Shown piece after piece: positions 4,255 to 58,762 of a stretch of 64,000 nt of DNA (position 1 is its first letter; each line of letters opens with the position of its first letter). The notes beneath the pieces are model-generated. The model saw only the letters and a program-made list of their open reading frames with translations, had not been told where the DNA came from and did no database searches. The DNA comes from an uncultured Gemmatimonadota bacterium (lineage in GTDB: Bacteria; JAAXHH01), in assembly GCA_951812955.1 (NCBI GenBank), contig OX638340.1, forward strand, positions 1,888,001 through 1,952,000, read 5' to 3'. A program made the position numbers and the translations under genes.

Positions 4255-4262
4255 ATCAGATT

Positions 4263-10343: not shown

Positions 10344-10459
10344 ATGCCCGCTCGATGAAAGATGGGTGGTCTTGTCGGTCTCGGAGGTTTCATTGCGGCG
10401 CCGGCGTTAAAATGTCAAAAGAAAGGGCCCGAAGCTCGTTGCCCAACTTGCGGTACGTC

Positions 10460-12049: not shown

Positions 12050-12065
12050 CCGATTCCTTCCGGGT

Positions 12066-23900: not shown

Positions 23901-25511
23901 GCCCTCGATGTCGCGGCCGTCGTCTTTCAGCCGAATGGACTCGTCCACGTCGAAGGCCTCGGGGTCCGACAGCATGGCCGGCAGCAAGGTGCCGATGGTC
24001 CTGATCTGCCGGACCAGGTTGGGGAAATCGACGTGCTCGACCCGGTCGACAGGCGTATCGATCAGCAGCCTGTTGTCGTTCACCGTGGAGAAGGTCATGC
24101 CATGCAGCCCCGCGAGCGTGACCATCTCATGATCGAAGGCTGGACCCGCGGGCATGTAGCTTTCCTGGGACCTGAGCGAAGGCGTCAGCGTATTGAGGTA
24201 GGCCGTCCGGCTGTCCTCCCGATCGTACACGCCGGCCTTGCGTGCGTAATTCATGTACCGGTCCGCATAGGGTTCGTACAGTATATCCAGATTCGAGGCG
24301 AAGAAGATGTAATCGCCGTAGCTGAACAGCCCGACCTGGTCCATCCGGCTGGTCAGGTCCAGACCCAGGAAAAGCGTGAAGGGGATCCGGTCCGCCTCAG
24401 GTATGCGTTCCAGGAAAAAATCGTCCGTCCGATAGTGGCGGTCCAAGAAGTCGTTTATGCCCTGCATGCCGTGGAAATGGGCGGACGTGGCCAGAAACAG
24501 CACGGTGTATCCGGGAGGATGGGCGCGGAACACGTCCAGCAGTTCCAGCATCGCCGCGATGCCGCCCGCGCTCTCGGCGCCCGGGGCCTGTCCGGGTACG
24601 ACCGACATGGCGTCATAGAATGCCGACAACACGACGACGCGGTCCTTCCACTTTTCTGTCCCGTCGCCGCCGGGAATCGGTTCGTCCCGACCCTGTATCC
24701 ACCCCATGACGTTCCAGGTTTCAGCCCGTTCCCACGACATGCGACCCCGGATCGTCACGTCGATGTTGCCGGGTCCTTCGGACCGGGCGGCCTGCAGCAC
24801 CTTCGCCGCGTGGGGATCGGGAATCCAGAACCGCGGGACGTCTGCGGGCACGTCCAGGATCTTGCGCTGGGCCTGGTTGTTGGTCACCGCGCCCGGACCG
24901 CTGTCGTAGAACAGGATAGCCTGCGCGCCCAGCATCCGCGCGTTGAGATACTGGTCTCGCCCGTCGAAATCGATCAGGACGATGCTTCCCTCGATCTCTT
25001 TCCCGTTGAAGGCCTGGAATTCGCCCCGGCGTCCATAGTGCAGTGGGCCTTTGATGCCGTTGGGAAAGGAATTCAGCCGGACCAGATTGGGCCAGAACTG
25101 GTACACCGGGATTTCGGTTTCAACTGAATCGTGCAGGGTAAGCGTGAACCCGTGGTCGACCGGCGAGGAAACGGTGAAGGTATCGATGGTTACTTCGGAC
25201 AGTCCCCCTGCATGGAACGCGTCGACCACGTACTCCATGGCCGCGCGGTTCCCCGGGTAGCCCACGACGCGCGACGGATGTGCGCTCATCGACCGGACGT
25301 GGGCCTCGACGCCCTCCACGGTCACGATTTCGGAGACTTCTTCCCAGGTCACTGGAGCTTCTTCGAGGGGCCTGGGAGTCACGTCATCGGGAAGCGAGAC
25401 GAACCTCAGGATCACGTGCTCCGTGACCCAGGCCGGACCGGCCACGGCCACGGCGAGGAAGAGCAGGACGCCCACGACAAGAAAGAAAGTTCCGAAAATC
25501 CGAGAATACAC
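20925..25511 (-). CDS. giant membrane protein: N-terminal TM anchor + PA domain + M28-like (apparently non-catalytic) domain + two FtsX/MacB-like permease units
   Basis: 1528 aa. PA-like SIVLIDFDGRDQYLNARMLGAQAILFY. M28-like block with SAFYDA / GAESAGG / SAHFHG where catalytic H, D, EE are substituted. TM cluster at ~880-960. LRKRKLRTALTAVTLTL TM plus periplasmic domain. C-terminal FtsX 4-TM with FERFREIGVYSAVGLAPN. Confidence 0.75.
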   Translation of the reverse strand: MYSRIFGTFFLVVGVLLFLAVAVAGPAWVTEHVILRFVSLPDDVTPRPLEEAPVTWEEVSEIVTVEGVEAHVRSMSAHPSRVVGYPGNRAAMEYVVDAFHAGGLSEVTIDTFTVSSPVDHGFTLTLHDSVETEIPVYQFWPNLVRLNSFPNGIKGPLHYGRRGEFQAFNGKEIEGSIVLIDFDGRDQYLNARMLGAQAILFYDSGPGAVTNNQAQRKILDVPADVPRFWIPDPHAAKVLQAARSEGPGNIDVTIRGRMSWERAETWNVMGWIQGRDEPIPGGDGTEKWKDRVVVLSAFYDAMSVVPGQAPGAESAGGIAAMLELLDVFRAHPPGYTVLFLATSAHFHGMQGINDFLDRHYRTDDFFLERIPEADRIPFTLFLGLDLTSRMDQVGLFSYGDYIFFASNLDILYEPYADRYMNYARKAGVYDREDSRTAYLNTLTPSLRSQESYMPAGPAFDHEMVTLAGLHGMTFSTVNDNRLLIDTPVDRVEHVDFPNLVRQIRTIGTLLPAMLSDPEAFDVDESIRLKDDGRDIEGRVLEFDRTVDFFKPNTPVSDALVVYEPGYQSHSGVRGFMVTHADSMGYFRFSMVRDSKGPTEVRSYGLDDTGRVVYAPDLGEEGDATFPLAVPNSSKVNNTIQVLFPCEEINLFDIVDPGVFVALDNLTVLGRDNSPLRKYGAAFVEDQSFFGNWMTNAAVVFAKPEDRVKMFMSAGPRGVKYLLTNTPESWLDDPPESISDDVMALAQGQGFTADRGPILYPFYQSALDLWSLNRARLMKLEDHGVTNARAAELHEESTQALRAAREALEDRRYDAFVARSREAWGYEARAYPDVRYAADDTVDGIVFYFMLLVPFCFFLERLFFGFPDIRKRLLAVGVIFAAVFLLLQNVHPAFQLSLTPYMVFLAFIILAMALIIITMIVTRFDTEMKNLTRSAAGLHEADIGRLSATAVAISLGISNLRKRKLRTALTAVTLTLLTFTVLSFTSFRTGIQFYTLDRENAPPYDGVLMRNLSWHSLPSSFLPYVENAFKAQAEVVPRSWYEPEDLTSPYIDLRAPGRGTSTTVQSLLGLHADEPAISGLDRYLVPGGRWFGPDERAVCLLPTELAERLDVEPEDVGTAVVEILGGRYTVIGLLESDGLDAYRDMDDESIMPASFSMTRSLTEMDVEVFMSTIQASEHLPSRNVLVLPYRQTLDLNGSTRSVAITGFADGDQLRDSVEAFMSRVLLAVFVGTEDEVKVYSSLGATSVSGLANLIIPVLIAAFLVLNTMMGAVFERFREIGVYSAVGLAPNHVAALFIAEAAVFATLGAVFGYLTGQIITMGLSQWDLLGGLSLNYSSLSTVYATVVVMVVVFLSTLYPAKKAADMTVEDVTRRWAPPTPDGDDWRFEFPFTVTIPEAYPLAGYLAHIFQTHEDSSAEDFVAEGTAHDVVPARPIEGYRVSATVWLAPYDLAISQDVALELEPVPGESLYRIMIAIRRRSGDLAQWQTINRRFFTVLRKRFLVWRTLSESIKDQYRKVEERAPAEAPQLT

Positions 25512-25512
25512 G

Positions 25513-27507
25513 TCAGTCTATCCCGTAGATATGATGCCCCGCGTGGGGGAACCATATGTAATCAACGAACATGGAGATGACCACGCCGGTAGCCACACCG
25601 AAGATAAGGCCCAGGAAGAAGGGCTGACCCTTTCGGTACAGCTCGATACCGCCGACCCACATCATGATGCTCTTGATGACCCAGCAAACGAACATGGACG
25701 ACACGATAGCGCGTGCGGGCCACGAGTAGGAAAGGAAGAAACCGAGGGGATGCAGCGGCCAGCCGGGCAGCCGGGCCCTCAGGGTCATGAGCAGGAACAT
25801 GAGCCAGCCGCCCACCATGAAGAACATGAGGCGGGCCGTGTCCGGTCCGAAGGGATCCCGCATCTTGGTGAGCGTTTCGTTGTAGGGGATGGTCGATCCG
25901 ATCCTTCCGAACCACCATCCGTTGGTGAACTGCCGCGTGCCCTGGTCGAATCCCAGGTAGATCGTCCAGATCAGCGCGATCACCACGCCGATCACCGCGG
26001 CGGACAGGACTGTCCAGCCCAGTCCACGGTGCCAGCGCGCACCGATCTCTGAAAGCTTGGCCACCTGCATGAAGGCGGGCATGAAGGTCGATTTGATCTC
26101 GCTGACGGGTCCATAGGTCTGGGCCATCGCCGTCATGGTGGACATGGACAGGTTCGCCGACCCGACCGAGTAGAATACGAGCACCTGGGCGATCATGGGC
26201 GAACGCACGTAGGGCAGCCCGGCTTCGGCGATGATGCGGGAGACGCCGATATAGATGACGAAGACGCCCGCGAGGAGGAACACGGCAATGGGCACGCTCA
26301 TGCCCAGCTGGTTCAGCCACACGATCCCGTAGACGAACCCGCCGAGAAAGCCGAAGACGGCGACCCGGTAGGGCAGCATCTCATCGGAGTCGTCCAGGTC
26401 CGATCTGCGGCCGAACGCATGGGAGAACACCGCGCGGATGTGAAACCTGGCCCGCCACAGCCCCCAGGCTACGAACACGATGAAGGCGCCCATGTTCTGC
26501 CAGTCCAGCATGGGGTGGATTGACGTGTAGTTGTCCCTGCCAGGTATGTCGTAACCGATCCGTTGTGCGATGCCTACCTGGATGATCCCGATCATGTAGA
26601 ACACCCAGAACCCGGCCAGCACGTCCAGGTTGACGAAGTAGGAAATACCGAGGATGGCTGGCCGGAAGTTGATCTCCAGCGGAGGGAATCCTTCGCCGAA
26701 GACAATGGGCGGCGCCGACCCGAAATAGGGAAACTGGGGCACGACCGGTGTGAAGTATCCGATAATGTTGTACATCATCACGCAGAAAGGGATGGAAAAG
26801 CCGATCCAGAAACGTTTCTCGGTCATAAATTCCGGGATGCGTCCCGACGATTCCATGCCTCGCGTCAAGGCGAGGGGGATCTGCATCATGGGGAATACCA
26901 GTTTCTCGTGTTCGACCCACTGTCTTCTGAGGATCACCACGAGACACAGCCCCATGAAGATGATCGGTACGATGAAGGTCAGCCACCAGAACAGGGGAAT
27001 GCCCCACACGCTCCAGGGTATGGACTCACCGGGCGGGATACCGTCGACGAACCAGGTCAGCGCATTGCCCTGGTTGGTGACGTTCGCCCAGGGTTTCAAA
27101 TAGGGATAAAAGTATTCTGCCCACTGGTTCTCGGGCGTCGCCAGGAGATTCGGCGCCATGAGCGTGGAGATAAACGGGGCGCCCATGCCGTTGGTCGACA
27201 GCCCGGAAGCCGCCATGCCCATGGCCAGGGGGATGACGAACTCGTGGGACGTCAGGGCCCAGTCTTTCTTCCACCGGGCCAGTATCACGTTGAACAGGAT
27301 GAGATACGCAAAGGCCAGGAACAACGCACCGATGTGAAGATGGTCCGCGCCGAGTTGAGACGAGGCCATGGTGTACTGAAAATAGGGGACGATCAGGGAA
27401 ATCAGGACGACGCTCGTCAGGCCCAGGAGGATGGATCTCGGCGTAATGATCCGGGTCGCGGTCGTCGGGCCGGCGGAAGAGGATACACTTTGCTGGGCTG
27501 AGGCCAT
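25513..27507 (-). CDS. polytopic integral membrane protein, uncharacterised family (paralog 2 of 3)
   Basis: Start taken at MASAQQ (ORF extends to 27615). Stop is 1 nt from the start of the giant gene. C-terminal YRKGQPFFLGLIFG...DYIWFPHAGH matches paralog 3. Confidence 0.7.
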   Translation of the reverse strand: MASAQQSVSSSAGPTTATRIITPRSILLGLTSVVLISLIVPYFQYTMASSQLGADHLHIGALFLAFAYLILFNVILARWKKDWALTSHEFVIPLAMGMAASGLSTNGMGAPFISTLMAPNLLATPENQWAEYFYPYLKPWANVTNQGNALTWFVDGIPPGESIPWSVWGIPLFWWLTFIVPIIFMGLCLVVILRRQWVEHEKLVFPMMQIPLALTRGMESSGRIPEFMTEKRFWIGFSIPFCVMMYNIIGYFTPVVPQFPYFGSAPPIVFGEGFPPLEINFRPAILGISYFVNLDVLAGFWVFYMIGIIQVGIAQRIGYDIPGRDNYTSIHPMLDWQNMGAFIVFVAWGLWRARFHIRAVFSHAFGRRSDLDDSDEMLPYRVAVFGFLGGFVYGIVWLNQLGMSVPIAVFLLAGVFVIYIGVSRIIAEAGLPYVRSPMIAQVLVFYSVGSANLSMSTMTAMAQTYGPVSEIKSTFMPAFMQVAKLSEIGARWHRGLGWTVLSAAVIGVVIALIWTIYLGFDQGTRQFTNGWWFGRIGSTIPYNETLTKMRDPFGPDTARLMFFMVGGWLMFLLMTLRARLPGWPLHPLGFFLSYSWPARAIVSSMFVCWVIKSIMMWVGGIELYRKGQPFFLGLIFGVATGVVISMFVDYIWFPHAGHHIYGID

Positions 27508-27729
27508 GGAAAGGGCCGGATTGTGATACTTGCGGTGACTGAAATACGGTAATGAATCTAGTCTGCGGGTCCAGAATATGTAAAATGGCAGACGGTATAA
27601 GTCAAAGAAAAACAAAGTTCCATGAGGTCCTGAGCCACCATCGGCCAGACCTTTTCGTTGTTGACACGATTCCGGTTTGCGGGGATATTTCCATACCTTG
27701 ATGTACCCGTTTCATACGAGGGATTTACA

Positions 27730-30270
27730 GTGAAGGCCGAAACGAGAGCCGCCATAGACCGCTTGCTGAACAGGTACATCGCCTTCATCTGCCGCCATCC
27801 GGCGAAGATCCTCCTGGGTGCGCTGCTGACCGCATTGCTCTCCGCGCATTTCGCATCCAGGCTTCAGCTTAAAACCGACTTCGTGGAACTGCTCCCGGAA
27901 GGCTACCGGAGCGTCGACGACATTCACCGGATCACGGAGCGCGTCGGCGGCATCGGCAACCTGACCGTCGTCATTGAAACGGAAGACCTGACTTCGGCAC
28001 AGCGGTTCGCCGACGACCTCGCCGGCAGGATCCATTCCGATCTTCCCGAGGGGTATATCCGGTATATCGAGTACCGGGTGGACGAGGAGAAGCGCTTCTA
28101 CGAAGACCACAAATATCTGTATGCGGATCTGGAGGACCTGGAAGAGATCCAGAACCGCCTGAGCCGACAGATCCTGAAGACGAAACTGGAGCAGAACCCC
28201 CTCTTCGTTTCCGAGGAAGACCTCGGGCTGGAAACGGAAGACGAACCGTTTACCTTGAGCGATCTGGAAGAGAAGTACGAAAAGAAAGCGGGGGAGAAGC
28301 TGGACAAGTGGGTCGACGGCTATTTCACGGGGCACGACGAGCAGGGGCAGTTTCTCGTCATGGTCCTGAAACCCTTCGGTTCGTCGACCGGCGTTTCCTT
28401 TTCGCGGGACCTGTGCGAACGGGTACTCGCCATCGTAGAAGGGCTTGACCCCCCGTCATACCATCCATCGCTGAAAGTGGGCCTCACCGGCAAGTACCGC
28501 CTGATCCTGGACCAGTACTCTTCCGTCCAGCGGGAGATCTTCTCGTCCGCCGCCTTCACACTGACCCTGGTGGCCCTGGTCATCTTCCTCTACTTCCGCA
28601 CCATCGTCCCGGTCATCAACATCACGCTGGTCGTGGTCGTCGGCATACTCTGGACGTTCTGCCTGACCTATTTCCGCATTGGCTACCTCAACATGCAGAC
28701 CGCCTTCCTGGGCGCCATCATCATTGGGAACGGCATCAACTACGGCCTGATCCTCATGGCCAGGTACAAGGAAGAAAGGCTGCAGGGAGCGGACGCCCTT
28801 GAAGGCGTGCAGATCGCCTTTCGGAATACGATTACCGCGACGGTCACAAGCGCGGCGTCCACGGGCCTCGCATACGGCACGCTCATGATCACTGATTTTC
28901 GCGGCTTCAATCACTTCGGGTTCATCGGCGGCCTCGGCATGCTGCTGTGTTGGATTTCCACCTTTTCTATCATGCCGGCGCTGCTGATGCTGTGGGACCG
29001 CACCCGTTTCGGGCGGAAGACCTGGACGCGGAAGGTCTCGCGGGGCGGGTCGCTGACCCATCTCGCCAACCTGGTGCAAAAGGCGCCGCAGGCCGTGGTG
29101 GGCACGAGTATCTCCCTGGTCGTGCTGGGTACCGCCCTCCTGGTGTGGTGGCTTCCGAATTCCTTCGAATACGACTTCTCGAAACTGCGAAACGAACCGC
29201 GGGGCGATACTTACGAGCGGATCCTCAACCACCGCGTAAACGCCCTGTTCGGTATATCGCAGTCTCCCGCGGTTATCCTCGCGGACCGCCTGGACCAGGT
29301 CCCGGGCATCCGGCGCGCCGTGCTGGACAAGAAAGAAGCGGAGAAAGAGGGTCCCAAACCGACCATCGACCGGGTGCGAACCATCTTCGATCTGCTGCCG
29401 GAGGACCAGGAAGACAAGATCGACGTGCTCTGGGACATAGATTACATGCTGGACACCAATCCGCCCGACGAACTTGGCATACCGCCCGACCAGCTCGAAA
29501 GGATCAACGCGTTCCGAGAGAACCTGAGCCTGGATGAAATCACCGTTGATGACCTGCCCCAGGCGCTCACGCGTCCCTTCGAGGAGCGGGACGGGACAGT
29601 GGGCAGGCTCGTCTACGTCTACCCGAGGTCGGACGCCGGACTCTGGAACGGCAGGAACCTGATCCGGTTCGCGGAAGTCGTCCGTTCCAACCGCCTGCCA
29701 GACGATGAAGTCATCTATTCCTCCGGTGAGGCCGTGGTATTCGCCGACATGCTGAAGGCCGTGGACCGCGACGGCCCCATTGCCACGGTCGCCTGCTTCG
29801 TGGGCGTTATCGCGCTACTCTTACTGGCATTCCGCAGCGTCCACGCGTCGGTCGTGATCCTGGCTTCCCTGCTGGGCGGCATGCTGGTCATGGGCGGCGT
29901 CATCGCCGTCTTCGACATCAAGGTGAATTTCTTCAACTTCATCGTCATACCCACTACGCTGGGGATCGGCGTGGACTACAGCGTGAACCTGTATCAACGC
30001 TACCGCCTTGACGGACGCGGTTCCATACGTAATATGGTACAGCATACAGGCGCGGCCCTGGTCATGTGTTCGTCCACGACGCTGATCGGTTACACTTCTC
30101 TCATGCTCACGTCCAACCGGGGCCTGCATTCCTTCGGCATCATGGCCAACGTGGGAGAGATCGCCACGCTGGCAACGGCCCTGGTCGCGCTGCCCGCCTA
30201 TCTGCTTATTATGGAAAAGCGGATGAGGAACAAGGCGCCTGGAACGCGGAGTCCGGTTCACGCCGCTTGA
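27730..30270 (+). CDS. MMPL/RND-superfamily exporter (HpnN/MmpL-like, two SSD-type 6-TM bundles)
   Basis: GTG start after GAGGGA RBS (ORF extends to ATG 27658). Two 12-TM halves with large periplasmic loops. Typical MMPL N-terminus. Confidence 0.8.
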   Translation: MKAETRAAIDRLLNRYIAFICRHPAKILLGALLTALLSAHFASRLQLKTDFVELLPEGYRSVDDIHRITERVGGIGNLTVVIETEDLTSAQRFADDLAGRIHSDLPEGYIRYIEYRVDEEKRFYEDHKYLYADLEDLEEIQNRLSRQILKTKLEQNPLFVSEEDLGLETEDEPFTLSDLEEKYEKKAGEKLDKWVDGYFTGHDEQGQFLVMVLKPFGSSTGVSFSRDLCERVLAIVEGLDPPSYHPSLKVGLTGKYRLILDQYSSVQREIFSSAAFTLTLVALVIFLYFRTIVPVINITLVVVVGILWTFCLTYFRIGYLNMQTAFLGAIIIGNGINYGLILMARYKEERLQGADALEGVQIAFRNTITATVTSAASTGLAYGTLMITDFRGFNHFGFIGGLGMLLCWISTFSIMPALLMLWDRTRFGRKTWTRKVSRGGSLTHLANLVQKAPQAVVGTSISLVVLGTALLVWWLPNSFEYDFSKLRNEPRGDTYERILNHRVNALFGISQSPAVILADRLDQVPGIRRAVLDKKEAEKEGPKPTIDRVRTIFDLLPEDQEDKIDVLWDIDYMLDTNPPDELGIPPDQLERINAFRENLSLDEITVDDLPQALTRPFEERDGTVGRLVYVYPRSDAGLWNGRNLIRFAEVVRSNRLPDDEVIYSSGEAVVFADMLKAVDRDGPIATVACFVGVIALLLLAFRSVHASVVILASLLGGMLVMGGVIAVFDIKVNFFNFIVIPTTLGIGVDYSVNLYQRYRLDGRGSIRNMVQHTGAALVMCSSTTLIGYTSLMLTSNRGLHSFGIMANVGEIATLATALVALPAYLLIMEKRMRNKAPGTRSPVHAA

Positions 30271-30323: not shown

Positions 30324-31958
30324 ATGAACCTTCATGCAGTGGACTACCGCCAGGTGTTGCCGGATCACCTGCTGCATACCTTTCTCGACGATTTCGAGTC
30401 ACTGCGGCACTTCTATACTTACGATCCCCGCGACCCGGACGTCTGGCCGCGCGCGATCGATGCAGTAAGATCCCGGTCAAATCCCCCACCGAGAAAGGCC
30501 GTATCCCGGACGCTCGAGGCGCAGAACGGCCGCTACGGGGCGGACGAAAGCGTCCTCGAAAACGCCCGTGCCCTTGGCGGCGAGGATACCTTCGTGATCT
30601 CCACGGGTCAGCAGACCGGACTATTCACCGGTCCGCTCTATACGATTTACAAGGCCATCACGGCCGTCAAGCTGGCGAAGCGGGTATCGGAAGAAACGGG
30701 CGTGCGGGCCGTACCGGTTTTCTGGATGGCCTCCGACGACCACGACTACGCCGAGATCAACCATGTCCACGTCTGCCGAGCGGACGGGGACGCCTTGCGC
30801 TTTGAACTGAGTCCCGACGACCCCAATGACCGCCGTTCCGCGAGCGACCGCCTGCTTGGACCCGAAATCGCGGCGCTGCTCGAGCAGTTTGCCGATGCCC
30901 TGCCCGATTCGGAATACAGCTCCTCCGCCATCTGCGCGCTTCGGCAGCACTGTACCGCCGGAACTTCGCTTTCCGAAGCCTTTGCCCGGCTGATGACACT
31001 GCTATTTCAGGGACAGGGCCTGGTTCTCGTAGACCCCACCGACCCGGCACTGAAACCCCTTATGAGCCCCGTGTTCGAACAGGAAATCCGCGATCCGCTC
31101 GCATCCACGCGCTCGGTCCTGTCTACTTCAGAAAAACTGTCCGACGCCGGGTTCGATTCCCAGGTCTCCCGTCTCCCCGAGGCGGTAAACCTGTTTCTCT
31201 ACCAGGACGGACAGCGGAACGCCCTGAGCTACGGGAATGGACGGTTCAGCAACCGGGACGGCAGCCTGTCCTTTACGGAACGGGACCTGCTGCGCGTGCT
31301 CGAGGATTCGCCCGAGCGATTCACCCACAACGTCATCACGCGTCCCCTGGTGCAGGACAGCCTGTTTCCGACGCTGACCTATATCGGCGGTCCGGCGGAA
31401 ATCGCCTACTACGGTCAGCTTGGCGGAGTCTATCGCCAGTTCGGTCTGCCTTTCCCCGTGGTCTATCCCCGCGCTTCCCACACGCTGGTGGGCGCCAGGA
31501 CCGCCCGGATACTGGAGAAGCACGGCCTCACGATCTCCCATTTCGTCCAGGGGATAGAGTCCGTGGTCGACCGGAAACTGCGGGACGACATGCCGGTACA
31601 TATCACCGAGGGACTTCGTGCCGCCCGTGGCGACGCGGAAGCCCATTACCGGAACCTGAAGGGACACGTGACGGCGCTCGACCCCGGGTTGAGCCGGATC
31701 GTGGACGCTTCGGAAAGAAAGACCAACTTCGCCCTGGGCAAGCTGGAGGAAAAGACCCTCCGGGCCATGAAGAGAGCGGACGGAGTCATGCGCGGCCAGA
31801 TCATGCGGGCGGACCGCATGATCTATCCCAACGGTCATCTCCAGGAACGGGTGGCCAACATCTGGCAGTACGTCGCCCTCTACGGAGTCGATGTCATGAA
31901 GACACTCTTCGAAGCCACGGATGAAACGGACTTCAGGCACAGGATAACCCCGCTATGA
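30324..31958 (+). CDS. bshC: bacillithiol biosynthesis cysteine-adding enzyme BshC
   Basis: 544 aa. Block VISTGQQTGLFTGPLYTIYKAITAVKLA...VFWMASDDHDYAEINHVH closely parallels B. subtilis BshC. Stop overlaps bshB start. Confidence 0.8.
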   Translation: MNLHAVDYRQVLPDHLLHTFLDDFESLRHFYTYDPRDPDVWPRAIDAVRSRSNPPPRKAVSRTLEAQNGRYGADESVLENARALGGEDTFVISTGQQTGLFTGPLYTIYKAITAVKLAKRVSEETGVRAVPVFWMASDDHDYAEINHVHVCRADGDALRFELSPDDPNDRRSASDRLLGPEIAALLEQFADALPDSEYSSSAICALRQHCTAGTSLSEAFARLMTLLFQGQGLVLVDPTDPALKPLMSPVFEQEIRDPLASTRSVLSTSEKLSDAGFDSQVSRLPEAVNLFLYQDGQRNALSYGNGRFSNRDGSLSFTERDLLRVLEDSPERFTHNVITRPLVQDSLFPTLTYIGGPAEIAYYGQLGGVYRQFGLPFPVVYPRASHTLVGARTARILEKHGLTISHFVQGIESVVDRKLRDDMPVHITEGLRAARGDAEAHYRNLKGHVTALDPGLSRIVDASERKTNFALGKLEEKTLRAMKRADGVMRGQIMRADRMIYPNGHLQERVANIWQYVALYGVDVMKTLFEATDETDFRHRITPL

Positions 31959-32680
31959 AACTCGACGTCCTGGCCGTATCCCCGCATCCGGATGACGTGG
32001 AGTTGCACTGCGGCGGCCTGATGGTCCGATTCGCCGACCTGGGATACGTCACCGGTATTGTCGATATGAGCCTGGGAGAGAAAGGCACCCGCGGCACGGT
32101 CGACGACCGGAGACTGGAAGCGGCGGCAGCGGCGAAGGTGCTCGGGCTGTCCGAAAGGCTGAATCTCGAACTGCCGGATTCCCGCATCGGGGCCTGCGAG
32201 TCGCACCGCGACGCCCTCGTCGACGCCATACGCCGGTTCCAACCGGACTTGCTTCTCGTTCCCCACGAAGTCGCCCGTCATCCGGATCACGGGGCGACCG
32301 CCCGCCTGGCCAGGGACGCGGCCTTCCTGGCGGGCCTGGAGAAAATCGAAACGGACCACCCGGCCTTCCGGCCCCGGCAACTGGTCTTCTACCTCACGCA
32401 CCACCGCTATCAAGAACCCAGGCCTTCCTTCATCGTCGACATATCCTCCTCCTTCAACCGGAAGATCGAAGCCGTGAAGGCCCACCGGTCGCAGTTCCAT
32501 GACCCGGACTCCGGCGAGCCGGAAACCTACATCAGCCGTCCGGAGTTCCTCGATGAGGTTGAGGCCCAGAGCCGTTACTACGGCACGCTGATCGGCGCGC
32601 GGTACGGGGAGCCCTTCGTAGTGCGGGAATACCTTTCGATCGACGATCCCCTGGCCCACTTCACGGGGCGCGCGGGATAG
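31955..32680 (+). CDS. bshB1: N-acetylglucosaminyl-malate deacetylase BshB (LmbE/PIG-L family)
   Basis: 241 aa. VLAVSPHPDDVELHCGG and HPDH zinc-binding motifs. Confidence 0.8.
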   Translation: MKLDVLAVSPHPDDVELHCGGLMVRFADLGYVTGIVDMSLGEKGTRGTVDDRRLEAAAAAKVLGLSERLNLELPDSRIGACESHRDALVDAIRRFQPDLLLVPHEVARHPDHGATARLARDAAFLAGLEKIETDHPAFRPRQLVFYLTHHRYQEPRPSFIVDISSSFNRKIEAVKAHRSQFHDPDSGEPETYISRPEFLDEVEAQSRYYGTLIGARYGEPFVVREYLSIDDPLAHFTGRAG

Positions 32681-32723
32681 TGGATCGAGCGGGACGGTAC
32701 ATACGGAAGTAGAGGCGAATCCC

Positions 32724-33845
32724 ATGAACATCGGTATCACCTGCTATCCCACCTACGGAGGAAGCGGCGCTATCGCCGCCGAACTGGGACAGGTCCTGGC
32801 GCGAAAGGGACATAAGGTCCATTTCGTGAGCTATTCGATTCCATTCCGCCTGCAGGAATACAGCCAGAACATCTACTTCCACAATGTCGAGGTCATGCCC
32901 TACCCGCTGTTCAAGTATCCGCCCTACACCCTGGCGCTAGCGGCGAAAATGGCCGACGTGGCACTGGAGGCGGAGCTGGACATCCTGCACGTGCACTACG
33001 CCGTTCCCCACGCCACCTGCGCCTTCCTGGCGCGGCACATGCTGCGGGACCGGGACATCAAGGTCATCACGACCCTTCACGGAACCGATATCACCCTCGT
33101 GGGCAGCGACAAGTCCTTCTACCGGATCACCAGATTCAGCATCGAGGAAAGCCAGGGAGTCACGGCCGTCTCCGAGTCCCTCAAGCGAGATACGCAGTCG
33201 CTCTTCGAGATCGACACGGATATCCGCGTAATTCCCAATTTCGTCGATGTCAACCGGTTCCGCCGGGGGGACGGTCACTGCGACATCAGCAATTTCGTCG
33301 ACGATGACGAGAAAGTCATCGTCCACGTCTCGAATTTCCGGCCCGTCAAGCGCATCGGGGATATCATCCGCATGTACGCGGAGGTGCGGAGCAAGGTCAA
33401 GTGCAAGCTGCTGCTGGTGGGGGAGGGACCGGAACGTATACCGATGCAGGAACTGGCCCGCGACCTGGGACTGCAGGACGGCGTGGTTTTTCTCGGTGAG
33501 CAGGAGGGAGTCGACCGGATCCTGTCCTGTTCCGACCTGTACCTGCTTCCCAGCGAACAGGAGAGTTTCGGCCTGTCGGCCCTGGAGGCCATGAGCTGCG
33601 GCGTACCGGTCATCGGCGCCAATGCGGGCGGTCTTCCGGAACTGGTGCGCCACGGGGAGACGGGATTCATCACCGAGGTAGGGGACATCCACCAGATGGC
33701 CCGCCACGCCACGGAACTGCTGGCCGATGACGACTTCAGGCAAACCATCGGGCGGCAGGCGCGGCAGCGGGTACTGGACAACTTCGCGGAAGAGGCCGTC
33801 GTCCCGCAGTATGAGGCATATTACGAGGAGGTATTGCGCGGATAA
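32724..33845 (+). CDS. bshA: N-acetyl-alpha-D-glucosaminyl L-malate synthase BshA (GT4)
   Basis: 373 aa. N-terminus MNIGITCYPTYGGSGAIAAELGQVLARKGHKVHFVSYSIPFRL nearly matches the BshA consensus. GT-B fold EX7E region. Confidence 0.85.
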   Translation: MNIGITCYPTYGGSGAIAAELGQVLARKGHKVHFVSYSIPFRLQEYSQNIYFHNVEVMPYPLFKYPPYTLALAAKMADVALEAELDILHVHYAVPHATCAFLARHMLRDRDIKVITTLHGTDITLVGSDKSFYRITRFSIEESQGVTAVSESLKRDTQSLFEIDTDIRVIPNFVDVNRFRRGDGHCDISNFVDDDEKVIVHVSNFRPVKRIGDIIRMYAEVRSKVKCKLLLVGEGPERIPMQELARDLGLQDGVVFLGEQEGVDRILSCSDLYLLPSEQESFGLSALEAMSCGVPVIGANAGGLPELVRHGETGFITEVGDIHQMARHATELLADDDFRQTIGRQARQRVLDNFAEEAVVPQYEAYYEEVLRG

Positions 33846-33922: not shown

Positions 33923-34369
33923 TCAGGAACCCTCCGATTTCTCCGCCAGCGACGCGTAACTCACCCCTTCGCCGCTGTCGTGACTCACCGGCAGGCCCAC
34001 TTCCTCCCATCCCGGATTGACCACTTGTCCGAATGGGGTCATCTCTCCGCTGAACCCGCATCGCATGTTCACGACCGTCTGGTATCCCATCGATTGCAGC
34101 AACTGGGCGGCATGGTCGGACCGCTGGCCGGTCCGGCAGCCCAGCACGAGTTTGGCATCCTCCGGATAGTTCGCTTTAACCACCTGGACGAAATCGGGAT
34201 TGGGCGTCATCTGCCCGGACTGCTCGTCCGCGTGCAGGAGCGGGATGTTCACCGCCGGCGCGGGGTGTCCCTGGTCGAATTCCGGAACGGACCGGACATC
34301 GATGTACACGTAGCCCTCTGATTCGACCAGCCTGGCCGCTTCATCGGGCATGACCTGATCCACGCTCAT
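33923..34369 (-). CDS. rhodanese-domain sulfurtransferase
   Basis: 148 aa. Active-site loop CRTGQRS. Immediately downstream of paralog 3 membrane protein (22-nt gap). Confidence 0.8.
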   Translation of the reverse strand: MSVDQVMPDEAARLVESEGYVYIDVRSVPEFDQGHPAPAVNIPLLHADEQSGQMTPNPDFVQVVKANYPEDAKLVLGCRTGQRSDHAAQLLQSMGYQTVVNMRCGFSGEMTPFGQVVNPGWEEVGLPVSHDSGEGVSYASLAEKSEGS

Positions 34370-34390
34370 CTAAAGCTCCTTTTCTTTTCG

Positions 34391-36388
34391 TTACCATGTT
34401 TCCACGATGTGGCCCGAATTCGGAAACCAGATTACATCGACGCAGTAGGAAAGCGCCACGCCCAGCACGTAACCCACCAACATGCCGATGAAGAAGGGCT
34501 GCGTCTCCCGGTACAATCTCGTGCCCCCCAGTTTAAGGATAATGGCCTTAACGAGCCAGACCAGGAAGATCGACGTGGCGATCATACCGATTCCCCAGGT
34601 CTTGGCAACAGCCCAGCCGATGGGATGCAGCGGCCACCAGTGGAAATTGTGGTGGGCCAGGATCAGCAGCCAGGCTATGAAGGCGCCGACCCCCAGGCCC
34701 AGGTACTCCCCGCCGGTCAACTGGGTCTGGTTATTGATCCATGTCGTCAGCGTGTTGTAACCCGCCTTCGCGTTTCCGAATGCGTCCCTGAACCCATCCG
34801 CGCCCGTGGTTTCGTAACCCAGGAAGACAGTATATACTACGGAAATGATGGCGGCCATGACCAGCGCCGAGACGATGACGGGGAAGATGCCGCGCCGGGC
34901 GCCGCCAATCTCGTCGCCCATCTTGTTTACGTGGGCCATGGCGCACATGCCCAGCGTACGCCAGTTCCGTGAGAATGTCTGCGACAGGGTCAGGATGGTG
35001 AGATCCGCGCGGTGCAGGTTCGCCGATCCGAAGGAGAACACCGTAAAGTCATGGGCGTTATATGGCAGGTCGAGATTAATCAGGCCCGCTTCCGCGACCA
35101 CGCGGGTGACCCCAAGAAAGAGGAGCATGCAGGTGGCCAGCAGCGTGGCCGCGGCGGCGAAGGACATGCCCATGCTGATCAGGAAGAAGAACATGTACGT
35201 GATGCCGAGTACCACGCCGCACATGGCGGTCCTGTAGGAGAAAAACTCCCCCGAATCGTCGATGTCGTTTCCCCTTCCGATGGCCTTACGCACCACGTCG
35301 TAGAGGTGGCGCCGGGCCATCCAGAGCCCGAACAGGGTGAACATGAAAAACCCGCCCAGGTGCTGGGCCGTGACGATCTCGGTCGTCTTCGGAATGCCGA
35401 ATCGACTCATGATGCCGATCTGGATCGTGGCCAGCAGGAAGAACACCCAGATGCTGAACAGGATGTTGAGATTCGTAAAGAATCCGATGCCGATGAAGGC
35501 GAAATTGATCTTGAACTGGATCGGCGGGAAGGATTCGGCCAGGGTGATCGGTATGCGGTAATCCCCGCCCAGTCTGATGGGCACCACAGCGTCCCAGTAC
35601 GAGACGATGTTCCAGAGAATGATGAAGAGGGGGATGGAGAATCCGTACCAGAAAACCCTGGACCGGGCGATCCGGGGCAGTACGGAGCCGCTTTGGTCAT
35701 CTTCGATGAGCAACAGGGGCACGCGGGCCAGCGGAAAGGTCAGACGTTCCCGCTCGATCCACTGTTTACGCAGGATCACCATGAGCGACGCGCTGGCGAA
35801 GAAAAGGGCCAGAAAGAAGGTGCCCCACCAACTCATGGGGATGATCCAGTCCCGCCAGGGAATGACGCCGGTGGAGGGCAGCCCCTCGTAGAACCAGTGC
35901 ACCGCCCGCCGTTCATCCGGGATGATGAGCCAGGTCGGGAGATACTCGAAAAACAATTCGACATACCTGTTCTCGGAGTTGGCATAGTAGTGCGGAATGG
36001 ATGGAACGGCGACCCAGTAGGTCGTAAATGCCCATCCGGGAATAGCCGAGGCCGTAAACACGATGAAAAAGATTATCATCAGTTCAGGAGCTGTGAATAT
36101 TCGAGTCGGTGCGAATCGCTTCAACAGGCCGTTTACGACGAAGACGACCAGCATGAAGGGGAAGAGCGCCGCCATGGGCATGTGGGTAATGGACAGGTAG
36201 GATGAATGAGCCTCGAAGGCGGAATGCACGACCCACCACGCCATGGCCGCGGACAGGAAGAGTCCCAGACCCACGGCACGAAGGGTCATGCCCGAAGCAA
36301 GCCCACCGGTTCTGCCGGGAGGACCTACATCGGGAGGATAGGAATCCGGCCTGCCTGCAGACGGGGGAGTCCGCTCTTTAACACTCAT
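34391..36388 (-). CDS. polytopic integral membrane protein, uncharacterised family (paralog 3 of 3)
   Basis: 665 aa. Colinear with paralog 2 (RKQWIERERLTFPLARVP; YRETQPFFIGMLVG...DVIWFPNSGH). Confidence 0.7.
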   Translation of the reverse strand: MSVKERTPPSAGRPDSYPPDVGPPGRTGGLASGMTLRAVGLGLFLSAAMAWWVVHSAFEAHSSYLSITHMPMAALFPFMLVVFVVNGLLKRFAPTRIFTAPELMIIFFIVFTASAIPGWAFTTYWVAVPSIPHYYANSENRYVELFFEYLPTWLIIPDERRAVHWFYEGLPSTGVIPWRDWIIPMSWWGTFFLALFFASASLMVILRKQWIERERLTFPLARVPLLLIEDDQSGSVLPRIARSRVFWYGFSIPLFIILWNIVSYWDAVVPIRLGGDYRIPITLAESFPPIQFKINFAFIGIGFFTNLNILFSIWVFFLLATIQIGIMSRFGIPKTTEIVTAQHLGGFFMFTLFGLWMARRHLYDVVRKAIGRGNDIDDSGEFFSYRTAMCGVVLGITYMFFFLISMGMSFAAAATLLATCMLLFLGVTRVVAEAGLINLDLPYNAHDFTVFSFGSANLHRADLTILTLSQTFSRNWRTLGMCAMAHVNKMGDEIGGARRGIFPVIVSALVMAAIISVVYTVFLGYETTGADGFRDAFGNAKAGYNTLTTWINNQTQLTGGEYLGLGVGAFIAWLLILAHHNFHWWPLHPIGWAVAKTWGIGMIATSIFLVWLVKAIILKLGGTRLYRETQPFFIGMLVGYVLGVALSYCVDVIWFPNSGHIVETW

Positions 36389-38497: not shown

Positions 38498-38745
38498 GCG
38501 GCATTCCTTATACATTAAAATCCTCTGATCTATTTCTGTGGCATGTTCAAGGTTGCATTCCGTCTTCGTAACGGTGTTGACCTGAACCAGATCCGTTAAG
38601 GTCGAGTATACCTGCCTGGAAGATTCCAAGGTCCTGGAATCACACTACGTGGAACCAGGAAACATTTCTTCCGTCGCCACGGTCCAATGTGTTGGTTATT
38701 TGTCGATAACTTTTCCGATTCTGAATACTGCGATTGGAGGAGGTT

Positions 38746-40314: not shown

Positions 40315-40406
40315 TAGAGCGAAGACACAACCATTGAATCCCTACGGAAGTCTCAATGACAACTCCGGTAGATGTCTTTACTACACAACCGTGGGAGTGG
40401 AATAGT

Positions 40407-41171
40407 ATGAAGACGATATGGATCACAGCGATTACGTGTATAGGTATTTATCCGGTTCTTGATTCCGGCGCGCAGACCACAGAGGTCATTCAAGTTGGGC
40501 AAGGATACGCGGCAACCATTGAAGAAACATTTACTGTGGAACCGGGCGGCGAACTGACCATCGATGCCGACTTCGGATCCGTCCGGATCGAGACTTCGAC
40601 GAGCAACACCGTGGAGGTTCTTGTGGAAAAGCGCCTGAAAGAGGGCACCGAAGACCAGGCACGCCGAGCCTTCGAAGAAGTGGAGGTAACAACAGAACAG
40701 CGGGGCAACGACGTACACATCGACGTTGACAATTCGCGATGGTTCAAGCGCGCCAGGGTTTCCGTAGCTATGACCGTGCAGGTGCCTTATACATACAGTC
40801 TGGATATCAAGACGGCAGGAGGCGGCATCGAAATCGGGAACCTGGACGGCGAGATCACGGCGAAGACTGCAGGCGGAAGCATCAGGACAGGAACCACGAA
40901 AGGGGACGTGACCGCCAAGACCCTGGGCGGAAGCATCCGTATCGGCCCGACTGAGGGAGGCGTGTCTGCCAAGACGATGGGCGGAAATATCGCTATAGGG
41001 GATACGAATGGGGACGTGTCGGCCCACACGCTGGGTGGAAGCATCCGCATCGGCATTGCGGACGGGGATGTACTTGCCAGGACGATGGGCGGAAACATCA
41101 CCGTTGAAGAAGCCTCGGGTAAAGTGTCTGCCAAGACCCTGGGCGGAAAAGTCCGGGTCGGTTCCACGTAA
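40407..41171 (+). CDS. DUF4097 beta-helix repeat protein, paralog 2
   Basis: N-terminal domain colinear with paralogs 1 and 3 (GGELTIDADFGSVRIE...VEVLVEKR). 19-aa TLGGSIRIG rungs. Sec signal. Confidence 0.65.
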   Translation: MKTIWITAITCIGIYPVLDSGAQTTEVIQVGQGYAATIEETFTVEPGGELTIDADFGSVRIETSTSNTVEVLVEKRLKEGTEDQARRAFEEVEVTTEQRGNDVHIDVDNSRWFKRARVSVAMTVQVPYTYSLDIKTAGGGIEIGNLDGEITAKTAGGSIRTGTTKGDVTAKTLGGSIRIGPTEGGVSAKTMGGNIAIGDTNGDVSAHTLGGSIRIGIADGDVLARTMGGNITVEEASGKVSAKTLGGKVRVGST

Positions 41172-41219
41172 CATATCTCTGGCGAAGACAACACCGCCTG
41201 TTTAGACATAAAGGGAGGG

Positions 41220-50091: not shown

Positions 50092-50154
50092 AATCCGCTC
50101 CTTCAGAGAAAGTACCGAAAATCGAAGTACAGGTCATCCGTGGTTTGGGTTCCG

Positions 50155-51984: not shown

Positions 51985-52070
51985 GAAGAAGGCTCCGTTC
52001 CTCGGCGCTAGCCGGGTGATGCAGGGCCGCGCCCTGTGGATCACCCTTCCGGCTCATGCCGGATGAAGCG

Positions 52071-56797: not shown

Positions 56798-56996
56798 ATG
56801 GGACCCTTCGATCCTTTTCAAACGCCGATTAGATAGTACGGCTCTATCAGCGTACATATCCATCTGCTCCGCGCCTTACCTTTCAAACACATACGCTTGC
56901 CTAATCAGATTCAGATACGAGTAGAACAGAAGACGTATCAGGCTAATTCAAAATTAAACTTTGATTTGGCCTAATTTGATGTTTAACTTGCAGATT

Positions 56997-58181: not shown

Positions 58182-58762
58182 TGAGTCGGCTCGGTTTGCC
58201 GGATCCCAAACCGGTGCTTTACCGCATCATGCACCTGGCGGTCTGCGTCGCCATAGTGGTATCCTTACCTGCCGCCGCCCAGGAAACAGCGGAGAATAAC
58301 ACCATGTTCTGGTCGACGACGCTGAAGATGATCCGTGCGAAGTTCCCCGGGGTCGCCCAGCTTTCCACCGACAGCCTGCAGGTTTGGCTCGAAGCGGCGC
58401 CGGACCGGCCGGGCCGGGAAAGCCCGTTGCTTCTCGACGTGCGGGAAAAGGAAGAATACGAGGTCAGCCACCTGGAAGGCGCCCTGCTCGCCACCTCGGA
58501 AAAAGAAGCACTGCAGGCGCTGGAAGACGTTCCCCCGGACCAGCCCGTCGTGCTGTACTGTTCCGTGGGCTACCGCTCATCGGAAATGGCCGGCTATCTG
58601 GAGAAGAAGGGGTTCAGGAAAGTCTTCAACCTGGAGGGGTCGATCTTCGCCTGGGCGAACGAGGGACGGCCCGTATACCGGGGCGACGATCGCGCGCATG
58701 TCGTCCATCCCTACGACCGCGTATGGGGCAAGCTGCTGAAGAAGGCGCTTCGGGCTAGGTAA
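58181..58762 (+). CDS. secreted rhodanese-domain protein
   Basis: Start overlaps the upstream stop (TGATG). Signal peptide LAVCVAIVVSLPAAAQE. Active-site YCSVGYRS. Confidence 0.75.
   Translation: MSRLGLPDPKPVLYRIMHLAVCVAIVVSLPAAAQETAENNTMFWSTTLKMIRAKFPGVAQLSTDSLQVWLEAAPDRPGRESPLLLDVREKEEYEVSHLEGALLATSEKEALQALEDVPPDQPVVLYCSVGYRSSEMAGYLEKKGFRKVFNLEGSIFAWANEGRPVYRGDDRAHVVHPYDRVWGKLLKKALRAR

What the first reader, a model, noticed from the sequence alone, without database searches (positions are those of the whole stretch)
30324..33845. Complete, contiguous bacillithiol biosynthesis cluster bshC-bshB-bshA next to an MMPL exporter and rhodanese genes
All three enzymes are encoded in one co-directional block, with bshC/bshB overlapping. 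In the best-studied Firmicutes bshC is unlinked from bshA-bshB1. Presence in a high-GC, apparently Gram-negative genome indicates that bacillithiol is the likely low-molecular-weight thiol here. Two rhodanese genes and a rhodanese-linked membrane paralog nearby hint at a thiol/persulfide-handling neighbourhood.
Basis: established knowledge. Interest (0 to 1): 0.5.

Follow-up and report, generated by a model that had tools for sequence, protein, structure and literature searches.

The report
Ordinary bacillithiol biosynthesis operon bshC-bshB-bshA
Three adjacent genes encode the known three-enzyme pathway for the antioxidant thiol bacillithiol in an uncultured Gram-negative bacterium; the annotation is correct, but the pathway, its presence in such bacteria and the clustered gene order are already known, and the proposed link to neighbouring sulfur genes does not hold.

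Summary
bshC (30324-31958), bshB1 (31955-32680) and bshA (32724-33845) are intact, co-directional and full length. Each scores far above the curated cut-off of its NCBIfam equivalog model and matches solved BshC, BshB and BshA structures. bshC and bshB overlap by 4 bp (ATGA). An MMPL/HAE3 RND transporter gene lies 53 nt upstream. A rhodanese gene lies convergently 77 nt downstream.

Bacillithiol genes were already reported for Latescibacteria (2015) and Gemmatimonadetes (2018), the labels carried by this lineage, and "occasional co-localization" of bshC with bshA has been cited since 2010. Among 62 species-representative bshC loci with enough flank, 8 have the same contiguous C-B-A order (Aminicenantes and others).

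The rhodanese belongs to a separate transcription unit with a DUF6785 membrane protein. That pairing exists only in this orthologue group and is absent from every other bsh locus. The second rhodanese is 24 kb away.

MMPL-bshCBA adjacency persists down to 45% BshC identity but is broken in one relative and absent elsewhere. No NmbA orthologue is evident in the window, so BSH versus N-methyl-BSH stays open. This is a correct, routine annotation of low interest.

The parts
30324..31958 (+). bshC, the cysteine-adding enzyme of bacillithiol synthesis (544 aa)
   Evidence: TIGR03998 scores 505 bits against a 266-bit cut-off, full length. Pfam gives PF10079+PF24850. It matches B. subtilis BshC 4WBD at E 6.9e-64 over residues 18-528, with the GQQxGLxTGPLYTIxK, WxAxxDHDxxEIN, TRPLxQ and GGPxEIxYxxQL motifs conserved. 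It carries all 42 invariant columns of a 19-sequence alignment. The start is ATG 30324: the 53 nt upstream show indels not divisible by three among relatives.
31955..32680 (+). bshB1, GlcNAc-malate deacetylase of the LmbE/PIG-L zinc hydrolase family (241 aa)
   Evidence: TIGR04001 scores 254.6 bits against a 182.5-bit cut-off; the BshB2 model scores only 43.5 bits. PDB matches are 1UAN (E 1e-44), 2IXD and 6P2T. H11-P-D13-D14, R52 and R108-H109-P-D111-H112 align to H12/D14/D15, R53 and R109/H110/D112/H113 of 2IXD. The start overlaps the bshC stop (ATGA).
32724..33845 (+). bshA, GT4 UDP-GlcNAc:L-malate glycosyltransferase (373 aa)
   Evidence: TIGR03999 scores 558 bits against a 273.7-bit cut-off, full length. 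PDB matches are 2JJM (E 1e-122) and 5D00 (B. subtilis BshA, E 4e-115). The SExESFGLxxLEAM (EX7E) motif is conserved.
27730..30270 (+). MMPL/HAE3-type RND transporter, co-directional and 53 nt upstream of bshC; possibly the first gene of the same transcription unit
   Evidence: Pfam MMPL matches in two stretches. HpnN-like score is 278 bits, far below the 752-bit cut-off, and HAE3 subfamily score is 196 bits. It lies immediately upstream of bshC in 7 related genomes. It is not next to bsh in L085 (61% identical MMPL) or in more distant orthologues. The ORF opens at TTG 27658; a relative's gene call corresponds to GTG 27730.
33923..34369 (-). Single-domain rhodanese (148 aa), a neighbour convergent with bshA; no evidence ties it to the bsh unit
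   Evidence: Pfam Rhodanese E 8e-16, with a CRTGQRS active-site loop. It always follows the DUF6785b orthologue (7 of 7 metagenome loci). It is absent from bsh loci outside this clade.
34391..36388 (-). [quoted passage not shown]
   Evidence: PF20581 E 5.5e-112 plus PF20580. It is 32% identical to paralogue a.
25513..27615 (-). DUF6785/DUF6784 membrane protein (paralogue a), divergent from the MMPL gene; a neighbour
   Evidence: PF20581 E 4e-110 plus PF20580. Its orthologues are always followed by the giant M28-FtsX protein (9 of 9 loci).
58229..58762 (+). Second rhodanese (177 aa, hydrophobic signal-like N-terminus), 24.4 kb from bshA; not part of the cluster
   Evidence: Pfam Rhodanese E 1.1e-17, with a CSVGYRS loop. 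Earlier negative results used the wrong reading frame.

Best explanation
The block encodes the canonical three-step bacillithiol (BSH) pathway. BshA (a GT4 glycosyltransferase) joins UDP-GlcNAc to L-malate to give GlcNAc-Mal. BshB1 (a zinc LmbE-type deacetylase) converts this to GlcN-Mal. BshC adds cysteine to give Cys-GlcN-Mal, which is BSH.

The genes are arranged bshC-bshB-bshA as one co-directional, tightly spaced unit. bshC and bshB are translationally coupled through an ATGA overlap. The unit is probably co-transcribed with the upstream MMPL/HAE3 transporter gene.

The host is an uncultured FCB-group bacterium whose relatives are labelled Gemmatimonadota or Latescibacterota. BSH or a derivative most likely serves as its cytoplasmic low-molecular-weight thiol buffer.

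Shown here: gene identity, integrity, conserved catalytic motifs, layout, and conservation of the layout in relatives. Inferred: enzyme activities, co-transcription, and that BSH is the dominant thiol.
For: - Equivalog HMMs score 1.4- to 2-fold above their curated cut-offs at full length, and Pfam architectures are correct.
- The three proteins match solved BshC (4WBD), BshB (1UAN, 2IXD, 6P2T) and BshA (2JJM, 5D00) with metal-binding and catalytic motifs intact.
- BshC carries all 42 invariant columns of a diverse 19-sequence alignment.
- Spacing is a 4-bp bshC/bshB overlap, a 43-nt bshB-bshA gap and a 53-nt MMPL-bshC gap, with no terminator-like site in the spacers.
- The same MMPL-bshC-bshB-bshA order occurs in 7 related genomes spanning 45-95% BshC identity, and the bshC/bshB 4-bp overlap is kept in L081-L084.
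- Gene content predicted thiol content correctly in Polaribacter and Thermus (PMC6282198).
Against: - There are no chemical data for any member of this lineage.
- To my knowledge (not checked here), BshC's ligase activity has never been reconstituted in vitro, so the last step rests on genetics in Bacillus and Chlorobaculum. [quoted passage not shown]
- The window is only 64 kb, so glutathione genes, nmbA, bacilliredoxins and the BSSB reductase YpdA cannot be scored.
- No BSH-using enzyme was recognised among the window proteins scanned.
- Co-transcription with MMPL is inferred from spacing only, and a promoter-like site also lies inside the MMPL 3' end (30008-30035).
Confidence: 0.85

Rival explanations
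1. The end product is not BSH itself but a derivative, such as N-methyl-BSH made by an NmbA methyltransferase encoded elsewhere in the genome, or an N-acylated form. The cluster would then supply only the precursor.
For: NmbA is reported as frequent in Gemmatimonadota, and 1765 of 3842 BSH-pathway species carry it (PMC12719100). More distant relatives (L082-L084) carry a small GNAT acetyltransferase directly after bshA. This recalls MshD, which completes mycothiol; that comparison is from my own knowledge.
Against: None of the three SAM methyltransferases in the window behaves like NmbA. Two do not hit CtNmbA (9RI2) at E<=0.01. The third (55302-56123) hits only the generic SAM core, ranks 16th (E 9e-7), and its N- and C-terminal parts find nothing. 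The GNAT is absent from the window and its closest relatives. The rest of the genome is unseen.
Confidence: 0.25
2. MMPL-bshC-bshB-bshA is a functional module. The HAE3/MMPL transporter exports BSH, BSSB or BSH-derived conjugates (mercapturic acids) across the inner membrane of this diderm, by analogy with CydDC-mediated glutathione export in E. coli.
For: The adjacency, with spacers of 75 nt or less, is kept across 45-95% BshC identity while the flanking genes are reshuffled. A BSH exporter is an acknowledged unknown (PMC5790435). Relatives add a GNAT, and N-acetylation is the step that produces mercapturic acids.
Against: L085 has a 61%-identical MMPL orthologue with the same upstream synteny, but a GH113 gene follows it instead of bsh. 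Orthologues at 42-48% identity have no bsh neighbours. None of the other 78 bshC loci has an MMPL neighbour. The closest curated families are lipid (hopanoid and sterol) transporters. MMPL is more conserved (65-73%) than BshC (45-50%) in the same genomes, as expected for an independent housekeeping gene.
Confidence: 0.1
3. The bsh genes, the rhodanese(s) and the DUF6785 membrane paralogues form a thiol/persulfide-handling neighbourhood.
For: A rhodanese with an intact catalytic Cys loop lies 77 nt from bshA. The arrangement is kept in L001, L002, L081 and L082.
Against: The rhodanese is convergent and belongs to the DUF6785b transcription unit. L083 and L084 keep MMPL-bshCBA but have no rhodanese or DUF6785b beside it. 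No other bsh locus has a rhodanese hit. More distant DUF6785 homologues are followed by an amidase, GH4, GFO/IDH/MocA, DeoR, a URO-D-like protein or a multihaem cytochrome, not by sulfur enzymes. The second rhodanese is 24 kb away beside mobile and restriction-modification genes.
Confidence: 0.05
4. The three proteins are paralogues that make a different GlcN-based conjugate rather than BSH.
For: BshA and BshB belong to very large superfamilies (GT4 and LmbE). BshC chemistry is unresolved.
Against: All three pass equivalog-level cut-offs, whereas competing models (MshA, MshB, BshB2, EPS GT4s) fall far below theirs. The co-occurrence of all three genes is the criterion used to define the pathway in comparative surveys.
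Confidence: 0.04

Closest known systems
Bacillus subtilis bacillithiol genes (bshB1-bshA in the mgsA operon; bshC with panE/ylbQ)
   Same: The same three enzyme families are present. Matches to B. subtilis BshC 4WBD (E 7e-64) and BshA 5D00 (E 4e-115) align over almost the full length with motifs conserved. The pathway logic is the same.
   Different: In B. subtilis the genes are split over two loci (PMC5790435). Here they form one contiguous bshC-bshB-bshA unit behind an MMPL gene. The order is reversed (B before A in both, but C leads here). No mgsA or pan genes are nearby.
Contiguous bshC-bshB-bshA clusters in MAGs titled Aminicenantes (L007, L008, L009, L062), Planctomycetota (L004) and 'Eubacteriales' (L012)
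   Same: They have the identical gene order and orientation with short spacers of 19-80 nt. Their BshCs are among the 12 most similar to the window's. Of those 12, 11 have bshA or bshB linked, against 7 of the other 68 (Fisher p=3e-8).
   Different: Identity is only 34-38% for BshC, 43-50% for BshB and 52-55% for BshA. They have no MMPL, rhodanese or DUF6785 neighbours. They have a bshC-bshB spacer instead of the 4-bp overlap.
Chlorobaculum tepidum N-methyl-bacillithiol pathway (CT0548 bshA, CT1419 bshB, CT1558 bshC, CT1040 nmbA)
   Same: It is a Gram-negative FCB-group organism that uses the bshA-C orthologues, with genetic and chemical proof (PMC6282198).
   Different: By locus tag the genes are dispersed in C. 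tepidum, and NmbA methylates the product. No NmbA orthologue was detected in this window.
Mycothiol pathway (MshA, MshB, MshC, MshD)
   Same: It has an analogous GT4 glycosyltransferase, then an LmbE deacetylase, then cysteine addition. Weak cross-hits to MshA (89 bits) and MshB (20 bits) were seen.
   Different: Both scores are far below the Msh cut-offs. BshC is unrelated to MshC. The acceptor is malate, not inositol. There is no MshD in the window, although relatives L082-L084 have a small GNAT after bshA.

Membership tests
BshC (TIGR03998; PF10079 + PF24850) | Full-length match above the equivalog cut-off, with the N-terminal Rossmann-like domain and the C-terminal coiled-coil domain | tested here: met
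   505.1 bits against a 265.8-bit cut-off, profile positions 4-528 of 529. PF10079 E 6.5e-109 and PF24850 E 1.1e-27.
BshC (TIGR03998; PF10079 + PF24850) | Conserved core motifs shared with the crystallised B. subtilis enzyme | tested here: met
   GQQxGLxTGPLYTIxK, WxAxxDHDxxEIN, TRPLxQ and GGPxEIxYxxQL are aligned and conserved against 4WBD. The query carries all 42 invariant columns of alignment A1.
BshC (TIGR03998; PF10079 + PF24850) | Cysteine addition to GlcN-Mal | not testable with these tools
   This needs genetics or biochemistry. The review notes that the activated form of cysteine is unidentified.
BshB1 (TIGR04001; LmbE/PIG-L zinc deacetylase) | Score above the BshB1 equivalog cut-off and clearly better than BshB2 or MshB | tested here: met
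   254.6 bits against a 182.5-bit cut-off. BshB2 scores 43.5 bits against 195. MshB scores 20 bits against 224.
BshB1 (TIGR04001; LmbE/PIG-L zinc deacetylase) | Zinc ligands and catalytic residues (H-x-D-D and R-H-x-D-H motifs) | tested here: met
   H11, D13, D14, R52, R108, H109, D111 and H112 align with H12, D14, D15, R53, R109, H110, D112 and H113 of 2IXD. The residue roles are from my own knowledge of the BC1534 literature.
BshA (TIGR03999; GT4 retaining glycosyltransferase) | Full-length match above the equivalog cut-off, with the EX7E motif | tested here: met
   558 bits against a 273.7-bit cut-off, positions 1-374 of 375. Matches 2JJM at E 1e-122 and 5D00 at E 4e-115. SEQESFGLSALEAM aligns with SEKESFGLVLLEAM.
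Bacillithiol-producing organism | All three genes bshA, bshB and bshC present in one genome | tested here: met
   This is the criterion used by PMC6282198 and PMC12719100.
Bacillithiol-producing organism | BSH detected chemically, and glutathione or mycothiol pathways absent | not testable with these tools
No gsh or msh genes were seen among the window proteins scanned.
N-methyl-bacillithiol producer (NmbA) | NmbA orthologue with its specific Cap domain | tested here: not met
   This applies within the window only. Methyltransferases at 3571-4254 and 4251-4973 do not hit 9RI2. The one at 55302-56123 matches only the SAM core (residues 71-174, E 9e-7, rank 16), and its termini find nothing. The rest of the genome is untested.
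Single operon MMPL-bshC-bshB-bshA | Same strand, short or overlapping spacers, and order conserved in relatives | tested here: met
   Spacers are 53, -4 and 43 nt. The order is conserved in L001, L002 and L081-L084.
Single operon MMPL-bshC-bshB-bshA | One transcript spanning all four genes | not testable with these tools
   The consensus scan found no terminator-like site in the spacers. It found promoter-like sites at 27661-27689 and 30008-30035. These are not evidence of function.
HpnN / BstA lipid transporters (HAE3 RND) | Score above the equivalog cut-off | tested here: not met
   HpnN scores 278 bits against 752. BstA scores 204 bits against 1400. The HAE3 subfamily scores 196 bits against 352. 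The gene is a member of the MMPL superfamily only (Pfam).
Rhodanese (PF00581) | Domain match with a catalytic Cys loop | tested here: met
   33923-34369 matches at E 8e-16 with a CRTGQRS loop. 58229-58762 matches at E 1e-17 with a CSVGYRS loop.

The most novel reading that the evidence does not exclude
In this Latescibacterota/Gemmatimonadota-labelled clade the MMPL/HAE3 transporter is co-transcribed with bshCBA, and in some members with a GNAT. It would export bacillithiol, its disulfide or BSH-derived mercapturic acids. That would make it the first candidate transporter for bacillithiol, whose transport is an acknowledged unknown.
Probability: 0.08. Interest if true: 0.6.

Novelty: new member of a known kind. 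Interest (0 to 1): 0.15.

Why it matters
The practical value is small. The result adds one more uncultured FCB-group lineage to the long list of predicted bacillithiol producers. It shows that a compact bshC-bshB-bshA operon is a recurrent arrangement and typical of one BshC subfamily, not a curiosity. A compact cluster could be convenient for heterologous expression of the whole pathway. The only lead with wider reach is the clade-limited linkage to an MMPL transporter, because no bacillithiol transporter is known. The present evidence for a functional link is weak.

Tried and rejected
- **Alternative bshC start.** TTG 30267 overlaps the MMPL stop, and gene callers use the equivalent start in relatives to give 563 aa. 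I rejected it because the 53 nt upstream of ATG 30324 carry indels not divisible by three among relatives, while the sequence just before the ATG is conserved.
- **Second rhodanese.** My first test used the wrong reading frame (58335-58739) and gave false negatives. Retesting in the correct frame was positive.
- **NmbA in the window.** Three methyltransferases were tested against PDB 9RI2 and none qualified.
- **Family-wide rhodanese-DUF6785 association.** This was rejected after scanning 45 metagenome loci.
- **MMPL-bsh association outside the clade.** This was rejected.
- **Intrinsic terminator between bshA and the rhodanese.** The spacer folds no better than shuffled sequence (z=0.21).
- **Literature search.** A search for 'bshCBA', 'bshABC' and similar operon terms found no relevant description of such clusters. 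Gaballa 2010 (PubMed 20308541) is not held in the library.
- **No tRNA genes** were found in the window.


Full report
**1. What is in the sequence**

Three co-directional ORFs occupy exactly the reported span: 30324-31958 (544 aa), 31955-32680 (241 aa) and 32724-33845 (373 aa).

Each matches one NCBIfam equivalog model far above its curated cut-off and over the full profile length:
- BshC, TIGR03998: 505.1 vs 265.8 bits.
- BshB1, TIGR04001: 254.6 vs 182.5 bits.
- BshA, TIGR03999: 558 vs 273.7 bits.

Competing models fall far below their cut-offs: BshB2 43.5 vs 195, MshB 20 vs 224, MshA 89 vs 462, and various exopolysaccharide GT4 families. Pfam gives the expected architectures.

Against solved structures:
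- The BshC candidate aligns to B. subtilis BshC 4WBD over residues 18-528 (E 6.9e-64). The long conserved motifs are intact.
- The BshB candidate aligns to 1UAN, 2IXD and 6P2T. The H-x-D-D and R-H-x-D-H zinc and catalytic motifs are conserved.
- The BshA candidate aligns to 2JJM and 5D00 (E about 1e-115 to 1e-122). The EX7E motif is present.

In a 19-sequence alignment spanning 32-95% identity, the window's BshC carries all 42 invariant columns.

**2. Layout**

- bshC's TGA overlaps bshB's ATG (ATGA, 31955-31958).
- The bshB-bshA spacer is 43 nt.
- The upstream gene is a two-MMPL-domain RND transporter ending at 30270, which leaves 53 nt before bshC.

Gene callers in close relatives start bshC at a TTG overlapping the MMPL stop. 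Among four relatives, however, the spacer carries indels not divisible by three, while the bases just before ATG 30324 are conserved. ATG 30324 is therefore the start.

Downstream, a 148-aa rhodanese (33923-34369) is convergent with bshA across 77 nt. That spacer folds no better than shuffled sequence. The consensus scan shows no terminator-like site in any spacer, and only weak promoter-like sites at 27661-27689 and 30008-30035.

**3. Who carries it**

The best database BshC is 95% identical and sits on a 3.9-Mb contig with identical gene order. Hits at 80-85% identity are titled Gemmatimonadota or Gemmatimonadetes MAGs, and one species representative is titled Candidatus Latescibacterota. 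Relatives at 45-55% are titled Latescibacteria or Zixibacteria. Loci titled Gemmatimonadota or Longimicrobiales (L005, L054, L079) share only 34-36%.

I therefore call the host an uncultured FCB-group lineage with inconsistent phylum labels. The window is about 60% GC and encodes an outer-membrane beta-barrel protein, which fits a diderm.

**4. Is the clustered arrangement unusual?**

I fetched 80 species-representative bshC loci with 10-kb flanks and located bshA and bshB in them:
- Of the 62 loci with at least 3 kb downstream, 8 have a contiguous co-directional bshC-bshB-bshA. Two of these are close relatives. The others are four Aminicenantes MAGs, one Planctomycetota-titled MAG and one Eubacteriales-titled MAG.
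- 17 of those 62 have bshA or bshB within 10 kb.
- Linkage is concentrated in the BshCs most similar to the query: 11 of the top 12, against 7 of the remaining 68 (Fisher p=3e-8).

The compact cluster is thus a recurrent arrangement that is typical of one BshC subfamily, not a singular event.

**5. Is bacillithiol in such an organism news?**

No.
- BSH biosynthesis machinery was noted in Latescibacteria single-cell genomes in 2015 (PMC4454575).
- A complete pathway was predicted for Gemmatimonadetes, Acidobacteria, Bacteroidetes, Chlamydiae and some Proteobacteria in 2018. Chemical confirmation exists for Chlorobiaceae, Polaribacter and Thermus (PMC6282198).
- A 2025 survey counts 3842 species with bshA-C. 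Of these, 1765 also carry the N-methyltransferase NmbA, which is 'frequent' in Gemmatimonadota (PMC12719100).

The sensible prediction for this organism is therefore 'BSH or N-methyl-BSH'.

I tested the three SAM methyltransferases in the window against the CtNmbA structure sequence (9RI2). Two do not hit it. The third (55302-56123) matches only the generic SAM-binding core, ranks 16th, and its N- and C-terminal parts find nothing. No NmbA orthologue is evident in these 64 kb. The rest of the genome is unseen.

**6. The neighbours**

*Rhodanese and the DUF6785 proteins.* The rhodanese follows a DUF6785/DUF6784 membrane protein (34391-36388) on the opposite strand. A 32%-identical paralogue (25513-27615) is followed by a 1528-aa M28-peptidase/PA/MacB-PCD/FtsX protein.

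In 45 metagenome loci, each paralogue keeps its own partner: rhodanese in 7 of 7 and the giant protein in 9 of 9. More distant DUF6785 genes are instead followed by an amidase, a GH4 glycosidase, a GFO/IDH/MocA oxidoreductase, a DeoR regulator, a URO-D-like protein, another DUF6785 or a multihaem cytochrome. The rhodanese link is therefore specific to one orthologue group and does not mark the family as sulfur-related.

Relatives L083 and L084 keep MMPL-bshCBA but have no rhodanese beside it. No bsh locus outside the clade has one. The second rhodanese (58229-58762, signal-like N-terminus) is genuine. It lies 24.4 kb away next to a DUF4143 ATPase, a D12 methyltransferase/NotI-like pair and an IS integrase. 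The 'thiol/persulfide neighbourhood' idea is not supported.

*The MMPL gene.* This is the more interesting neighbour. MMPL-bshC-bshB-bshA is conserved, with spacers of 75 nt or less, in seven genomes down to 45% BshC identity, although the flanking genes differ. Three of these genomes add a small GNAT after bshA.

Four observations weigh against a functional tie:
- A 61%-identical MMPL orthologue with the same upstream synteny is followed by a GH113 gene instead of bsh (L085).
- Orthologues at 42-48% identity have unrelated neighbours.
- No other bshC locus has an MMPL gene.
- The nearest curated families are hopanoid and sterol transporters, all below cut-off.

I rate a functional BSH or conjugate export role at about 0.1. 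It is worth noting only because transport of BSH is an open question.

**7. Verdict**

The gene assignments are secure. The mechanism is the textbook BshA, BshB, BshC route.

The claims of unusualness and of a sulfur-handling neighbourhood are not borne out. This is a new member of a well-known kind and of low interest. What remains untestable here is the actual thiol chemistry, the absence of glutathione genes and the transcript structure.

Noticed in passing
window 20925-27615 (-) and 33923-36388 (-); L089-L116: Two DUF6785/DUF6784 membrane paralogues (32% identical) each keep a fixed downstream partner across metagenomes. Paralogue a is followed by a 1528-aa fusion of M28 peptidase, PA, MacB periplasmic core and FtsX permease domains (9 of 9 loci). 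Paralogue b is followed by a rhodanese (7 of 7 loci). More distant homologues sit next to an amidase, GH4, GFO/IDH/MocA or DeoR genes, which hints at a substrate-uptake role for this uncharacterised family.
   Followed up: partly
L082 11518-12012, L083 11543-12025, L084 11510-11995: In relatives with 45-50% identical BshC, a small GNAT acetyltransferase (62-68% identical among them) directly follows bshA. It is absent from the window and its closest relatives. It could relate to N-acetylation of Cys conjugates (mercapturate formation) or of the thiol itself. This was not tested.
   Followed up: partly
window 48721-54143 (-): Two tandem aldehyde:ferredoxin oxidoreductase (AFOR) paralogues (50155-52044 and 52071-54143) are followed by a PadH-like NADH-dependent FAD oxidoreductase (48721-50091, 265 bits against a 475-bit cut-off).
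   Followed up: no
window 56961-63800: This appears to be a mobile or defence-like segment, and GC falls to 0.50 in the last 2 kb. It holds a DUF4143 AAA ATPase (56961-58181), a secreted-type rhodanese (58229-58762), a D12 adenine methyltransferase (59034-60098) overlapping a NotI-like endonuclease (60095-60973), an IS integrase (61074-61748) and several ORFs with no family match.
   Followed up: partly
window 7816-13715 (-): A histidine-utilisation block is present: urocanase (12066-13715), histidine ammonia-lyase type (10460-12049) and two amidohydrolases (9060-10343 and 7816-9063), with a creatininase-family gene at 6878-7735.
   Followed up: no
window 17599-19656 (-): A 685-aa ORF has very high third-position GC (0.84), which indicates real coding sequence, but it has no Pfam match at E<=0.01.
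   Followed up: no
window 31880-32740 (-): A 286-aa antisense 'shadow' ORF spans the whole of bshB (GC3 0.70). A naive longest-ORF caller picked it instead of bshB. It is an artefact of high GC, not a gene.
   Followed up: yes
L001 11632-12353: In the related chromosome OZ252103.1 the bshB match is split into two overlapping tblastn segments in different frames. This suggests a frameshift or an assembly error in that record.
   Followed up: no
window 38734-42506 (+): Two Toastrack/DUF4097 proteins (38734-40314 and 41220-42506) flank an unassigned 271-aa ORF (40356-41171). The region has strong positive GC and AT skew and lower GC (0.54-0.56).
   Followed up: no
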